Virus record (IMG/VR): IMGVR_UViG_2541047121_000027
DNA from: a virus
Taxonomy: Duplodnaviria > Heunggongvirae > Uroviricota > Caudoviricetes
Reading direction: 5' to 3' (one strand)
Length of the DNA: 12,870 bases
Shown here: in pieces, positions 9,554 through 10,494 of the stretch
How the letters are laid out: every line of letters begins with the position of its first letter
How positions within the stretch are numbered: position 1 is the stretch's first letter
Translations under genes and position numbers: made by a program
The notes under the pieces: model-generated
What the model saw: only the letters and a program-made list of their open reading frames with translations
Databases searched by the model: none
Told to the model about the DNA's origin: nothing

Positions 9554-9601
9554 CGGGTCCTTCCTGGAATTATGGCCCGTTACGGGGCGGCGACCTCGCG
9601 G
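9554..9601 (+). repeat. 48-bp perfect inverted repeat, left copy (cosQ/cosN core)
   Basis: CGGGTCCTTCCTGGAATTATGGCCCGTTACGGGGCGGCGACCTCGCGG; its exact reverse complement is at 10447..10494 (checked base by base). Confidence 0.9.
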
Positions 9602-9640
9602 ATTTTCGCTATTTATGAGCCTTTTCAGGGTGGTGGTGGT
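9554..9640 (+). other. Lambda-type cos site A (cosQ, cosN, start of cosB), plus orientation
   Basis: cosN GGGCGGCGACCT at 9585..9596 with lambda-like flanks: ACGGGTCC...GTTACG upstream and CGCGGATTTTCGCTATTTATGA downstream (lambda left end recalled as GGGCGGCGACCTCGCGGGTTTTCGCTATTTATGAAAATTTTCCGG). Lies directly upstream of the Nu1-like gene, as in lambda. Confidence 0.8.
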
Positions 9641-9729
9641 GGTTTTGTTGTTTGATCTATCTTTATGAATGAAAAGGGAAAGATGCAAGCAATACACCAA
9701 CCTGAAGCAGTAATTAAGTTGGTGTATTA

Positions 9730-10272
9730 ATGAAATCTCATCTGATGAACAAAAAAAACATGGCGAAAAGCTGCCGTGTAAGTGCGACAGCGTTCGACAA
9801 GTGGGGAGTAACTCCCGTTGAGCGTAAAGGCCGTGAGGCGTTTTATGATGTTGCCAGCGTGATAGAAAATAGGGTTAACAATGCAATTAGCCAGCTTATA
9901 AACGACAAAGGCGAGATTGACGATGATGAACTTTTACGAGTCAGGATCAGATTACTGACAGCACAGGCAGAGGCGCAGGAACTTAAAAACGATCGCGATC
10001 GCGGTGACGTGATTGATACTGAGTTTTGCCTGTACGCGCTTTCAAAGCTGGCGAGTCAGATTTCATCAATCATGGACAGCCTCCCGCTTACTATGCAAAG
10101 GAGCTTCCCACAGATTACCCCCGCCATGCTGGACAGGCTTAAAAGGGAAGTGGTTAAAGCCTGTAATGCCAGTGCCAGAGTTGCCGACAACCTCCCACAG
10201 ATACTGGCTGATTACTTGAAAGAAACAACCGGAAACGTACCGGAAAAGTTGCTACAGAAGAAAGGCGAGTAA
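9730..10272 (+). CDS. Terminase small subunit, lambda Nu1 family (180 aa; start could be 9730, 9745 or 9760)
   Basis: RLLTAQAEAQELKNDRDRGDVIDTEFCLYALSKLASQISSIMDSLPLTMQRSFPQI parallels lambda Nu1 RLTRAQADAQELKNARDSAEVVETAFCTFVLSRIAGEIASILDGLPLSVQRRFPEL; the N-terminal region (MNKKNMAKS...FDKWGV...) also parallels Nu1 (MEVNKKQLADIFG...). No strong Shine-Dalgarno at any candidate start. Confidence 0.85.
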   Translation: MKSHLMNKKNMAKSCRVSATAFDKWGVTPVERKGREAFYDVASVIENRVNNAISQLINDKGEIDDDELLRVRIRLLTAQAEAQELKNDRDRGDVIDTEFCLYALSKLASQISSIMDSLPLTMQRSFPQITPAMLDRLKREVVKACNASARVADNLPQILADYLKETTGNVPEKLLQKKGE

Positions 10273-10289
10273 CAGACGCGCAATTATTG

Positions 10290-10494
10290 AACAAAAATGA
10301 GAAAGGATCTGATAATGGCATTTTCTGGCTAAAATGCCTCGTGTCAGATCCTTTCTTTTTTTAATATTTTCATTGTTAAACAGTCTGTTACAGAGAAGAA
10401 GATCGGATCTGACTTTTGCCGGAAAATTCTCATAAACAGATAAAAACCGCGAGGTCGCCGCCCCGTAACGGGCCATAATTCCAGGAAGGACCCG
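10290..10494 (-). other. Lambda-type cos site B, inverted (minus orientation), with R3/R2/R1-like cosB elements
   Basis: Minus strand reads cosQ/cosN (identical 48 bp) then CGCGGTTTTTATCTGTTTATGAGAATTTTCCGG and CAGATCCGATCTTCTTCT (compare lambda R3 CGTTTCCGTTCTTCTTCG), then an inverted-repeat pair GAAAGGATCTGA / TCAGATCCTTTC (plus 10301..10312 and 10344..10355), analogous to lambda R2/R1 (GAAAGGAAACGACAG...CTGTCGTTTCCTTTC). On the plus strand this hairpin plus T7 (10356..10362) also works as the terS terminator. Confidence 0.7.
10447..10494 (-). repeat. 48-bp perfect inverted repeat, right copy (cosQ/cosN core; cosN reverse complement at 10452..10463)
   Basis: Exact reverse complement of 9554..9601. 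Confidence 0.9.

What the first reader, a model, noticed from the sequence alone, without database searches (positions are those of the whole stretch)
9554..10494. Two convergent lambda-type cos sites with an identical 48-bp core but different cosB regions bracket the terS gene
The sequence shows a perfect 48-bp inverted repeat (9554..9601 and 10447..10494) whose content is a lambda-like cosQ plus the 12-nt cosN GGGCGGCGACCT. Beyond the shared core the copies diverge. Copy A (plus orientation, upstream of terS as in lambda) is followed by TTTTCGCTATTTATGA, a (GGT) tract and an 11-bp hairpin at the terS start. Copy B (minus orientation, abutting the 3' end of terS) carries lambda-like R3/R2/R1-type elements. 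A single cos per genome is the norm for cos phages and satellites. Two cos sites pointing at each other across about 850 bp, with a conserved cleavage core and different terminase-binding modules, suggests dual packaging specificity (one site for a helper Nu1-type TerS, one for the island TerS), a decoy that sequesters helper terminase, or a recombination-invertible terS cassette. Perfect identity over 48 bp argues for selection or recent gene conversion.
Basis: partly seen in the sequence, partly recalled or inferred. Interest (0 to 1): 0.9.

Follow-up and report, generated by a model that had tools for sequence, protein, structure and literature searches.

The report
Convergent cos pair of E. 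coli PICI
The two facing lambda-type DNA-packaging sites around the small-terminase gene are real. They are the O157 version of the published cos1/cos2 pair of the E. coli satellite island EcCICFT073, here with one site matched to the island's own N15-like terminase subunit and the other built like a complete helper-phage site.

Summary
A perfect 48-bp inverted repeat (76 nt at 91%) holds cosQ and cosN twice, convergently, around a Nu1-family terS.

The window is an O-island-51-type phage-inducible chromosomal island between roxA and phoQ, syntenic with EcCICFT073. That prototype's two functional cos sites were published in 2018 and 2019, and I show they have the same convergent geometry. "Two cos sites" is therefore not new.

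What differs here:
- The slot holds a full-length TerS with an N15-like DNA-binding domain, not Rpp, and copy A carries an N15-R3-like box.
- Copy B is a complete phage-type cos. Its R-boxes sit at bp 53, 113 and 153 with an IHF-like site, and are of the type used by a lambdoid prophage family.
- The 845-bp cassette is flipped in related islands, with breakpoints at cosN.
- R-box modules are swapped between islands, and cos2 is truncated in up to 84 genomes.
- The 48-bp identity is peculiar to the O157 lineage (8–9 mismatches in four relatives, one in ATCC 25922), which points to gene conversion.

Best reading: a private island cos plus an accessory helper-type cos. Inverted orientation makes the two compatible. 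There is no evidence of active switching. This is a new variant of a known kind, of moderate interest.

The parts
9111..9524 (+). 137-aa conserved island gene upstream of copy A (left flank of the cassette)
   Evidence: ORF list. It occupies the same position in CFT073, L008, L009, L091-L093. It matches phrog_1999 and, weakly, the C-terminal end of a head maturation protease/scaffold family.
9530..9553 (+). Terminator-like hairpin GGCCGGAGAAATCCGGCTTTTTT ending the upstream operon
   Evidence: Member of repeat family D1; read directly from the sequence.
9554..9601 (+). Copy A core: cosQ (9555-9561), spacer, cosN (9585-9596) and CGCGG. It equals the published cos1 position of EcCICFT073.
   Evidence: CFT073 'cos.1' in Fig. 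S5 of PMC6092414 is the + strand site upstream of rppA.
9602..9629 (+). I2-like segment of copy A (ATTTTCGCTATTTATGAGCCTTTTCAGG), similar to lambda bp 18-45
   Evidence: Alignment to lambda. It forms the extended arm of the inverted repeat.
9629..9653 (+). (GGT)5 tract plus TTTTGTTGTTT: candidate single R3-type cosB of copy A (N15-like). TGGTGGTTTTGTT is invariant in six island lineages.
   Evidence: N15 R3 (bp 48-60 per PMC9026076) is GAGGTTGTTGTTT. The shared 9-mer TTGTTGTTT lies at bp 61-69 here and bp 52-60 in N15.
9691..9727 (+). 11-bp perfect hairpin (AATACACCAAC / GTTGGTGTATT) just before the terS ATG
   Evidence: Fold, (-17.1 kcal/mol, z -3.4). It is not conserved in L008, L009 or L093, so it is probably not essential.
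9730..10272 (+). terS: 180-aa Nu1-family small terminase subunit with an N15 gp1-like winged-helix DNA-binding domain and a lambda-like C-terminal region
   Evidence: Pfam Phage_Nu1 82.6 bits against a cut-off of 30; phrog_57; N15 gp1 44% identity over residues 5-166, E 3e-40; lambda Nu1 36% identity, E 1e-33, full length; no similarity to RppA (E 3.4).
10300..10312 (-). R1 box of copy B (TCAGATCCTTTCT; core at bp 153-159 from cosN)
   Evidence: Invariant in five CAGATCC-type cosB modules.
10343..10356 (-). R2 box of copy B (AGAAAGGATCTGAC; inverted relative to R3 and R1; core at bp 113-119)
10362..10374 (-). IHF-consensus-like site (AATGAAAATATTA, one mismatch to WATCAANNNNTTR) between R3 and R2, where lambda has I1
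   Evidence: Analogous sites lie at bp 86-91 in lambda, L007, L008, L009 and CFT073 phage 4.
10394..10412 (-). R3 box of copy B (TCAGATCCGATCTTCTTCT; core at bp 53-59)
10419..10446 (-). I2-like segment of copy B (TTTTTATCTGTTTATGAGAATTTTCCGG)
10447..10494 (-). Copy B core: cosQ (10487-10493), spacer and cosN (10452-10463). It equals the published cos2 position of EcCICFT073, and the cosQ-spacer-cosN part (44 of the 48 nt) plus the adjoining right flank is identical to CFT073 cos2.
10528..10809 (+). 93-aa conserved island gene (right flank of the cassette)
   Evidence: phrog_1561.

Best explanation
**What it is.** This is the DNA-packaging module of an EcCICFT073-family phage-inducible chromosomal island, the O-island-51 type between roxA and phoQ. 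Its two convergent cos sites are the counterparts of the published cos1 and cos2.

**Copy A.** Copy A is the island's private packaging site. It has lambda-type cosQ and cosN for the helper's large terminase subunit. Its cosB is a single N15-R3-like box, which is read by the island-encoded TerS through an N15-like winged-helix domain. The lambda-like C-terminal region of that TerS then recruits the helper TerL. Packaging runs rightwards from 9585.

**Copy B.** Copy B is a complete phage-type cos (cosQ, cosN, I2, R3, IHF site, R2, R1). Its R-boxes belong to a type used by a family of lambdoid prophages. A helper of that type could start packaging leftwards from 10463 with its own TerS. That would give the island a second, TerS-independent entry into capsids and would also soak up helper terminase.

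**Why convergent.** Inverted orientation is what lets two cos sites coexist. An inverted cos cannot terminate packaging begun at the other site, because cosQ acts in one direction only. Recombination between inverted copies flips terS instead of deleting it.

**What is shown and what is inferred.** Shown: the anatomy, the synteny with EcCICFT073, the flip, the module swapping and the loss of cos2. Inferred: which protein binds which site, and that both sites are cut in this island.
For: 1. **Synteny.** The window is at the same chromosomal site and has the same gene order as EcCICFT073. CFT073 has a + strand cos upstream of rppA and a - strand cos just past its 3' end. Published 'cos.1' is the + strand site.
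2. **Published experiments.** Both CFT073 sites mobilise plasmids. Deleting cos1 lowers transfer, deleting cos2 raises it, and deleting both abolishes it (PMC6092414). Only the cosB of cos1 responds to RppA (PMC6739421).
3. **Copy B anatomy.** The R cores lie at bp 53/113/153 and the IHF-like site near bp 90, identical to prophage L007, where the same cosB sits between the lysis genes and terS-terL-portal. The two are 78% identical over bp 13-147.
4. **Footprint.** R3, R2 and R1 are invariant while the spacers drift across five modules from three island backbones and one prophage.
5. **Copy A and TerS.** The island TerS is N15 gp1-like (44% identity; recognition helix VSATAFDKWGV against ISVQAFDKWGV). 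Copy A carries TTGTTGTTT, as in N15 R3.
6. **Co-variation.** The TerS DNA-binding domain and TGGTGGTTTTGTT stay constant in six island lineages. Meanwhile the R-box type at the other cos switches between CAGATCC and CATGTCG, the latter like CFT073 helper phage 4.
7. **Control.** In 68 usable Nu1-type terS loci from other taxa, every genuine cos is a single site upstream of terS.
8. **Inversion.** The inner 845 bp of L008 and L009 match the window only as reverse complement (92.5% and 87.4%, against 48-50% direct). The flanks match directly.
Against: - No cleavage or binding data exist for this island. TerS-encoding E. coli PICIs tested in 2018 (IHE3034, 18098) were transferred at low or undetectable frequency (<1 to 110 transductants/ml; PMC6092414).
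- O157 genomes have no second place matching copy B's cosB, so no resident prophage with that R-box type was detected.
- cos2 is dispensable or even costly: deleting it raised EcCICFT073 transfer, and it is truncated in up to 84 genomes.
- The N15-like box lies 9 bp further from cosN than in N15, and the shared motif is short and of low complexity.
- In this window the island's integrase is interrupted by an IS element, so the module may be idle in this strain.
Confidence: 0.65

Rival explanations
1. Copy B is a by-product with no function. It would be a phage-derived cosB/cosN fragment left behind when packaging cassettes were exchanged by recombination at the shared cos cores, and it is tolerated because its inverted orientation makes it harmless.
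For: Deleting cos2 did not lower EcCICFT073 transfer; it raised it (PMC6092414). cos2 is truncated to cosQ plus half of cosN in clone D i2 and in up to 84 genomes. No matching prophage was found in O157. The flanks are 95-97% identical between CFT073 and O157 while the inner segment is unrelated, as expected for cassette exchange at the cores.
Against: The R-boxes are invariant while the spacers drift across five lineages. Box positions match lambda to within 2 bp. Between O157 and L008, copy B's cosB is 90-100% identical per 60 nt, at least as conserved as terS. A convergent second cos recurs on an unrelated island backbone (L005/L006). CFT073 cos2 on a plasmid is transferable.
Confidence: 0.15
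2. Copy B is mainly a decoy. On the replicating island its phage-type cosB titrates helper TerS/TerL, or provokes abortive double cuts, and so interferes with helper packaging rather than promoting island transfer.
For: Copy B matches a phage cosB type in every positional feature. Cutting both convergent sites on one molecule would free an 0.87-kb fragment and abort both packaging events (inference). This could explain why deleting cos2 raised transfer.
Against: In EcCICFT073, interference mapped to rppA alone (PMC6739421). A terminase bound at a complete cos would normally go on to package island DNA, so 'decoy' and 'second entry' are hard to tell apart. Interference by this island has not been measured.
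Confidence: 0.12
3. The cassette is a programmed invertible switch that changes packaging direction or terS expression within a population.
For: Both orientations exist in related islands (L008, L009 against O157, ATCC 25922, PE164). The inverted repeats are perfect over 48 bp in O157.
Against: No O157-like inverted isoform was found among 5426 complete genomes; it would have topped. 221 records are >=99% identical to the window's arrangement. The flipped forms are 7-13% diverged and sit in islands at other chromosomal sites. No invertase gene is adjacent; the only recombinase is the island integrase about 9 kb away.
Confidence: 0.05

Closest known systems
EcCICFT073 cos1/cos2 with rppA (Fillol-Salom et al. 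2018 ISME J, PMC6092414; 2019 Mol Cell, PMC6739421; Murialdo & Feiss 2022, PMC9026076)
   Same: It has the same chromosomal site (roxA-phoQ) and the same flanking genes: perC, MCP, decoration, 137-aa ORF, slot, 93-aa ORF. It has the same convergent geometry, with one cos upstream of the slot gene and one abutting its 3' end. cosQ, spacer and cosN of cos2, with the right flank, are identical to the window's copy B. The cos next to the slot gene lacks phage R-boxes.
   Different: In the window the slot holds a 180-aa full-length Nu1-family TerS, not the 144-aa Rpp (BLASTP E 3.4). Copy A's box is GGT/TTGTTGTTT rather than ACACCACCACCAC. Copy B has a textbook R3-IHF-R2-R1 array of CAGATCC type, whereas CFT073 cos2 has three ATGTCCGG boxes in another arrangement (bp 52+, 110-, 140-) and no IHF-like site. 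The two cores are identical in O157 and differ at 9 of 48 positions in CFT073.
Bacteriophage lambda cos (cosQ-cosN-I2-R3-I1-R2-R1) and Nu1
   Same: The 12-nt cosN is identical, cosQ lies at -30, the I2-like segment is present, and in copy B the box order, orientation and spacing match within 2 bp. TerS is 36% identical to Nu1 over its full length, including the C-terminal region that binds gpA in lambda (the role of that region is established knowledge reviewed in PMC9026076).
   Different: The R-box sequence is CAGATCC rather than CGTTTCC. Copy B is followed by the 3' end of a convergent terS, not by the start of a terS-terL operon. There are two sites, not one. No terL, portal or protease gene is present in the island.
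Bacteriophage N15 cos and gp1 (single R3, no IHF site)
   Same: N15 gp1 is the best phage match of the island TerS (44% identity, residues 5-166) and the recognition helices are near-identical. Copy A, like N15, has one candidate R box and no IHF-like site, and shares TTGTTGTTT with the mapped N15 R3.
   Different: The cohesive end is lambda's (GGGCGGCGACCT), not N15's (GGGCGGCGTCCG). The box lies 9 bp further from cosN. The terS start is at bp 146, against bp 89 in N15. The island TerS has a 14-residue C-terminal tail that N15 gp1 lacks.
SaPI strategies: SaPI-encoded TerS in pac SaPIs; cos SaPIs such as SaPIbov5; SaPIbov4 with two putative cos sites
   Same: The logic is the same: a satellite-encoded small terminase redirects the helper's large terminase to the satellite's own site, and two cos sites in one satellite have been noted before (PMC6092414).
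   Different: The lineage is unrelated (Gram-positive, different terminase families). No sequence comparison was made here; the resemblance is functional only.

Membership tests
Lambda-type cos site | 12-nt cohesive-end site cosN with lambda-like sequence | tested here: met
   GGGCGGCGACCT at 9585-9596 (+) and 10452-10463 (-), identical to lambda bp 1-12.
Lambda-type cos site | cosQ (GGGTCCT) about 30 bp upstream of cosN, in the same orientation | tested here: met
   The offset is -30 in both copies and in all 11 cos sites compared.
Lambda-type cos site | cosB with R3, IHF site I1, R2 (inverted) and R1 at lambda-like spacing | tested here: met
   Met by copy B only: cores at bp 53(+), 113(-), 153(+), with an IHF-like site at bp 90, and boxes invariant across five modules. 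Copy A does not meet this feature. It has no repeated R boxes and no IHF-like site, so it resembles the N15/PICI single-R3 type.
Lambda-type cos site | Nicking by terminase, giving 12-nt cohesive ends | not testable with these tools
   This needs end-mapping or in vitro cleavage. It was shown functionally only for the homologous CFT073 sites (PMC6092414).
EcCICFT073-family Gram-negative PICI | Island of about 11 kb with int, alpA, a replication module and a unidirectional late region, at a site not used by prophages | tested here: met
   The order is int, HTH regulator, icd-like, RepA-type helicase, ssb, perC, MCP, decoration, 137-aa ORF, slot and 93-aa ORF between roxA and phoQ, as in CFT073. 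PMC6092414 equates these elements with O-island 51.
EcCICFT073-family Gram-negative PICI | cos1 upstream and cos2 downstream of the slot gene | tested here: met
EcCICFT073-family Gram-negative PICI | Helper-induced excision, replication and high-frequency transfer | not testable with these tools
   This needs an experiment. In this window int is interrupted by an IS3-family element, which argues against autonomous excision in this strain.
Rpp (redirecting phage packaging) proteins | Protein of about 135-155 aa homologous to RppA/B/C that lacks the TerS C-terminal TerL-binding region | tested here: not met
   The slot protein has 180 aa. BLASTP against RppA gives E 3.4. It aligns with lambda Nu1 to its C-terminus.
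Nu1-family small terminase (Pfam PF07471) | Significant match to the family profile across the oligomerisation and C-terminal regions, plus an N-terminal winged-helix DNA-binding domain | tested here: met
   PF07471 scores 82.6 bits against a cut-off of 30; phrog_57 E 8e-53; the DNA-binding domain aligns with N15 gp1 and lambda Nu1.
Site-specific invertible DNA switch (Hin/Gin/Cin or FimB/E type) | Dedicated invertase next to short inverted repeats, with both orientations present within one lineage | tested here: not met
   No recombinase gene is near the cassette. No flipped form exists among genomes near-identical to the window (221 records at >=99%).

The most novel reading that the evidence does not exclude
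The helper terminase may itself flip and shuffle the cassette. Cutting both convergent cosN sites frees an 0.87-kb fragment whose two ends carry the same 12-nt cohesive end, and both flank ends carry its complement. The fragment, or a foreign cos-bounded cassette cut the same way, could then be re-ligated in either orientation.

This would explain three observations: the inversion breakpoints lie exactly at cosN, the cosQ-side spacers stay with their flanks, and rpp, N15-type terS, 21-type terS and different R-box modules are all found in the same slot. Packaging enzymes would then drive modular evolution of satellite packaging specificity.

My data do not separate this from ordinary homologous recombination within the 23-bp identical cosN block.
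Probability: 0.15. Interest if true: 0.7.

Novelty: new variant of a known kind. Interest (0 to 1): 0.45.

Why it matters
Satellite islands such as this one move virulence and defence genes between E. coli strains, and their host and helper range depends on how they get packaged. The published model, in which Rpp forms a heterodimer with helper TerS at cos1, covers only one version of the slot.

This O157 version suggests a second solution in the same architecture: a complete satellite TerS with an N15-type reading head. It also suggests that the unexplained cos2 is a swappable, helper-matched phage cos.

If that is right, the R-box type of cos2 and the TerS or Rpp type of cos1 could be used to predict which lambdoid phages can mobilise which islands. 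The natural variants found here (flipped, swapped, cos2-less) are ready-made material for testing it.

Tried and rejected
- **cf-PICI or P4-like satellite.** I first suspected one of these. I rejected it because the island has no portal, protease or terL gene, and its gene order and insertion site are those of EcCICFT073.
- **Rpp or Nu1 match among solved structures.** phmmer against PDB found nothing for TerS or for the 137-aa ORF. The solved Nu1 and Rpp fragments are too short or too diverged.
- **Relatives outside E. coli, first attempt.** The first genome-contig scan used exact peptides and returned nothing. The second, with an alignment, returned 80 Nu1-type loci that served as controls, but none was an island with paired cos sites.
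- **Promoter for terS.** The promoter/terminator scan of 9450-10600 gave nothing above background upstream of terS, so I make no claim about a promoter inside the cassette.
- **att repeats.** I found no exact direct repeat of 12 nt or more between window 1-420 and 10800-11420. The left end of the window is an IS element, so attL is not in the window.
- **The hairpin at the terS start as a conserved element.** Rejected, because it is absent from L008, L009 and L093.
- **Rfam and tRNA scans.** Neither found anything in the cos region.
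Full report
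**1.

The repeat finder reports inverted arms at 9554-9629 and 10419-10494, 76 nt long and 91% complementary. The first 48 nt of each arm are identical, which is impossible by chance (about 1e-21 expected). GGGCGGCGACCT, lambda's cohesive-end sequence, lies at 9585-9596 on the plus strand and 10452-10463 on the minus strand. GGGTCCT (cosQ) lies 30 nt upstream of each. The two sites face each other across 845 bp that contain a 180-aa ORF at 9730-10272. The same 1.5 kb occurs in one piece in 487 complete E. coli genomes, so it is not an assembly artefact.

**2. Anatomy of the two copies**

I aligned both copies to lambda cos, taken from NC_001416.

Copy B, read on the minus strand, is collinear with lambda through I2, R3, the I1 region, R2 and R1. 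Its 7-mer box cores (CAGATCC) lie at bp 53(+), 113(-) and 153(+) from the first base of cosN. Lambda's CGTTTCC cores lie at 53, 114 and 155. A one-mismatch IHF consensus lies at bp 90.

Copy A follows lambda only to about bp 45. It then has (GGT)5, TTTTGTTGTTT and an 11-bp hairpin before the ATG.

**3. What the window is**

The window matches E. coli O157:H7 chromosomes at 100%. The annotation around it shows an island of about 11 kb between roxA and phoQ. Its gene order is integrase, HTH regulator, icd-like genes, a RepA-type helicase, ssb, perC, a lambda-E-type major capsid gene, a lambda-D-type decoration gene, a 137-aa ORF, terS and a 93-aa ORF (Pfam).

EcCICFT073, the prototype Gram-negative phage-inducible chromosomal island, lies at the same site in CFT073 with the same order. 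There the 144-aa RppA (c1503) stands where terS stands here. Fillol-Salom et al. state that these elements correspond to O-island 51 of O157:H7 (PMC6092414).

**4. Two cos sites are already published for this family**

The 2018 paper reports two cos sites in EcCICFT073:
- Each mobilises a plasmid.
- Deleting cos1 lowers transfer by lambda and phi80.
- Deleting cos2 raises transfer.
- Deleting both abolishes transfer.

The 2019 paper shows that an RppA-TerS heterodimer recognises the cosB of cos1 only. Murialdo and Feiss (PMC9026076) propose a single R3-like site at bp 48-65 of PICI cos sites.

I located the CFT073 sites at L004:2559 (+), upstream of rppA, and L004:3298 (-), just past its 3' end. 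The sequence printed as 'CFT073 cos.1' in Fig. S5 is the plus-strand one. The text I could search does not discuss the relative orientation of the two sites.

**5. What is different in the O157 version**

*The slot protein is a real small terminase.*
- It matches Pfam Phage_Nu1 at 82.6 bits.
- It is 36% identical to lambda Nu1 over its whole length, including the C-terminal part that binds the large subunit in lambda.
- It shows no similarity to RppA (E 3.4).
- Its best phage relative is N15 gp1 (44% identity), and the winged-helix domains align closely: VSATAFDKWGVTPVERKGREAFYDV against ISVQAFDKWGVQPVEKRGREVFFDV.

*Copy A has an N15-like box.* N15 is the lambdoid phage whose cosB is a single R3 (GAGGTTGTTGTTT, bp 48-60) with no IHF site. 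Copy A has TTGTTGTTT at bp 61-69 and no IHF-like site. This match is short, of low complexity and displaced by 9 bp, so the assignment is an inference.

*Co-variation supports the assignment.* In six island lineages (O157, ATCC 25922, PE164, clone D i2, L008, L009) the TerS recognition helix and the box TGGTGGTTTTGTT stay constant, while the other cos changes type.

**6. Copy B is a phage-type cos**

The same CAGATCC boxes at the same positions occur in a lambdoid prophage (L007). There they sit in the canonical place between the lysis genes and terS-terL-portal, next to a TerS with a different recognition helix (VDVRTITAWQ).

Across five CAGATCC-type modules (two O157-type islands, two islands of another backbone and the prophage), R3, R2 and R1 are essentially invariant while the spacers drift. 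This is the pattern expected for binding sites under selection.

In L009, ATCC 25922 and PE164 the same terS is paired with a different module. Its CATGTCG-type boxes and R3-I1 region resemble those of CFT073 helper phage 4 (74% identity over bp 13-147). Even CFT073 cos2, for which no phage cosB had been recognised, has three ATGTCCGG boxes.

So cos2-type sites look like swappable copies of helper-phage cos sites.

One caveat applies. O157 genomes show no second place matching copy B's cosB, so a cognate helper would have to come from outside.

**7. The cassette has flipped in evolution**

I built the hypothetical inverted junction and searched 5426 complete genomes. Five genomes match it in one piece at 88-94% identity. 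In L008 and L009, which are islands at other chromosomal sites, terS lies on the opposite strand between the same flanking genes.

The inner 845 bp match the window only as reverse complement (92.5% and 87.4%, against 48-50% direct), while the flanks match directly. The cosQ-side spacers stay with their flanks: TTTCCGGCATATGGACC on the left and TTCCTGGAATTATGGCC on the right. The breakpoints therefore lie in the shared 23-bp cosN block.

All four combinations of orientation and R-box type exist.

No flipped form exists among genomes near-identical to the window (221 records at >=99% over the 1.5-kb region); it would have topped. No invertase gene is nearby. This is an evolutionary polymorphism, not a demonstrated switch.

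**8. The perfect 48 bp**

The two cores differ at 8 positions in L008, 8 in L009 and 9 in CFT073. PE164 has a cos1-type left core and ATCC 25922 has one mismatch. O157 has the cos2-type spacer on both sides. A simple crossover cannot produce that, so the left core was converted to the right-hand type.

**9. The second cos can be lost**

In clone D i2 the terS stop codon is followed directly by CCGCCGCCCCGTAACGGGCC…. Half of cosN and all of cosB are gone. That junction is found in up to 84 genomes, and the listed rows are single-piece 100% matches. In L006 terS itself is mostly deleted, which leaves two convergent cos sites about 470 bp apart.

For scale:
- About 383 genomes carry a CAGATCC-type cos2 at 90% identity or more.
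- 83 genomes carry the CFT073 rppA-type pair.
- In 68 usable Nu1-type terS loci from other taxa, every genuine cos is a single site upstream of terS.

**10. How it most likely works**

Shown: the anatomy, the homology to a functionally tested pair, and the comparative pattern.

Inferred:
- Island TerS reads the N15-like box of copy A and brings the helper's TerL to cosN. This is a complete-TerS variant of the Rpp strategy.
- A helper with CAGATCC-type specificity can use copy B directly.
- Inverted orientation is the only stable way to carry both sites. cosQ-dependent termination is directional, so an inverted cos is not read as an end. Recombination between inverted copies flips terS instead of deleting it.
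- Cutting both sites on one molecule would release the 0.87-kb fragment and abort both packaging events. This may be why deleting cos2 raised EcCICFT073 transfer.

The rivals are that copy B is a relic, that it is mainly a decoy, or that the cassette is a programmed switch. Each is weighed in its own section of this report.

**11. Verdict**

The finding is real, and part of its interpretation is right, but the headline (two cos sites in a satellite) is already known for this island family. The new elements are:
- the N15-type TerS and cos pairing in the Rpp slot;
- recognition of cos2 as a modular, fully phage-like cos;
- the natural inversion with breakpoints at cosN;
- lineage-specific gene conversion.

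This is a new variant of a known kind, of moderate interest.

Noticed in passing
window 1-439: The left end of the window is an IS3-family element: an ALIL pseudoknot (RF01497, 94 bits) at 1-105 on the minus strand, with a transposase reading frame. Relative to strain TW14359, the window matches only from 440 onward, and 440 corresponds to a point 67 nt inside the island integrase gene. The integrase is therefore interrupted in this strain, and the island is probably locked in the chromosome.
   Followed up: partly
window 9111-9524: The conserved 137-aa ORF just upstream of copy A matches phrog_1999 and, weakly (E 5e-9), the C-terminal end of a head maturation protease family. In lambda that is where the Nu3 scaffold is nested. 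Together with the E-like capsid gene (7695-8750) and the D-like decoration gene (8763-9098), the island may encode a capsid-scaffold trio. EcCICFT073 was nevertheless reported to be packaged in phage-sized heads.
   Followed up: no
window 6889-6918, 7253-7282, 9526-9555: There are three copies of a terminator-like hairpin (GCCGGAGAAATCCGGCTTTTTT, 77-83% alike), each placed after a late-region gene. They look like a repeated transcription punctuation element.
   Followed up: no
L005 3950-5850 (E. coli Eco_23-3571) and L006 3950-4480 (STEC367): A different island backbone carries a terS with a 21-type DNA-binding domain. It is preceded by a canonical cos with CATGTCGG boxes and faced by a second cos with CAGATCC boxes, and a third cos-like site lies about 900 bp further on. 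The cosN sequences differ from lambda's: GGGCGGCAGACG, GGGCGATGGACG, and a degenerate one. In L006 terS is almost entirely deleted but both cos sites remain.
   Followed up: partly
L004 2559 and 39745 (CFT073): EcCICFT073 cos1 and the cos of its helper prophage 4 are co-oriented and 37,186 bp apart on the chromosome, close to the lower packaging limit of a lambda-sized head. In situ packaging from cos1 to the prophage cos would carry phoPQ, purB and icd. This is pure speculation and was not examined.
   Followed up: no
L004 3150-3300 (CFT073 cos2, minus strand): CFT073 cos2, for which the original papers reported no recognisable phage cosB, contains three ATGTCCGG boxes at bp 52(+), 110(-) and 140(-) from cosN.
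   Followed up: partly
Supplementary primer table of PMC6092414; compare L009 9400-9470: The primer used to insert the cat marker in the TerS-encoding IHE3034 island (RS04635-RS04640::cat) matches the R1/R2 region of the CATGTCG-type cos2. The marker may therefore have disrupted that island's second cos. That island gave at most 40 transductants/ml.
   Followed up: no
L092 (E. coli PE164) 170-900: In this forward-orientation relative, terS is annotated as frameshifted and the left cosQ reads GGGACCT instead of GGGTCCT. The module appears to be decaying.
   Followed up: no
row H168 (NC_002695.2, O157:H7 Sakai): The Sakai reference chromosome has no match to the terS cassette. Its best hit covers 8% of the query, at the cos of prophage Sp8. 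Not all O157:H7 genomes carry this module.
   Followed up: no
TerS proteins of O157, L005 and clone D i2: TerS looks mosaic. The C-terminal half of the L005 TerS closely resembles that of the O157 island TerS, while their N-terminal DNA-binding domains are unrelated (21-type against N15-type). Conversely, clone D i2 keeps the N15-type domain but has a diverged C-terminal third. This suggests domain shuffling between the DNA-reading and TerL-binding parts.
   Followed up: partly
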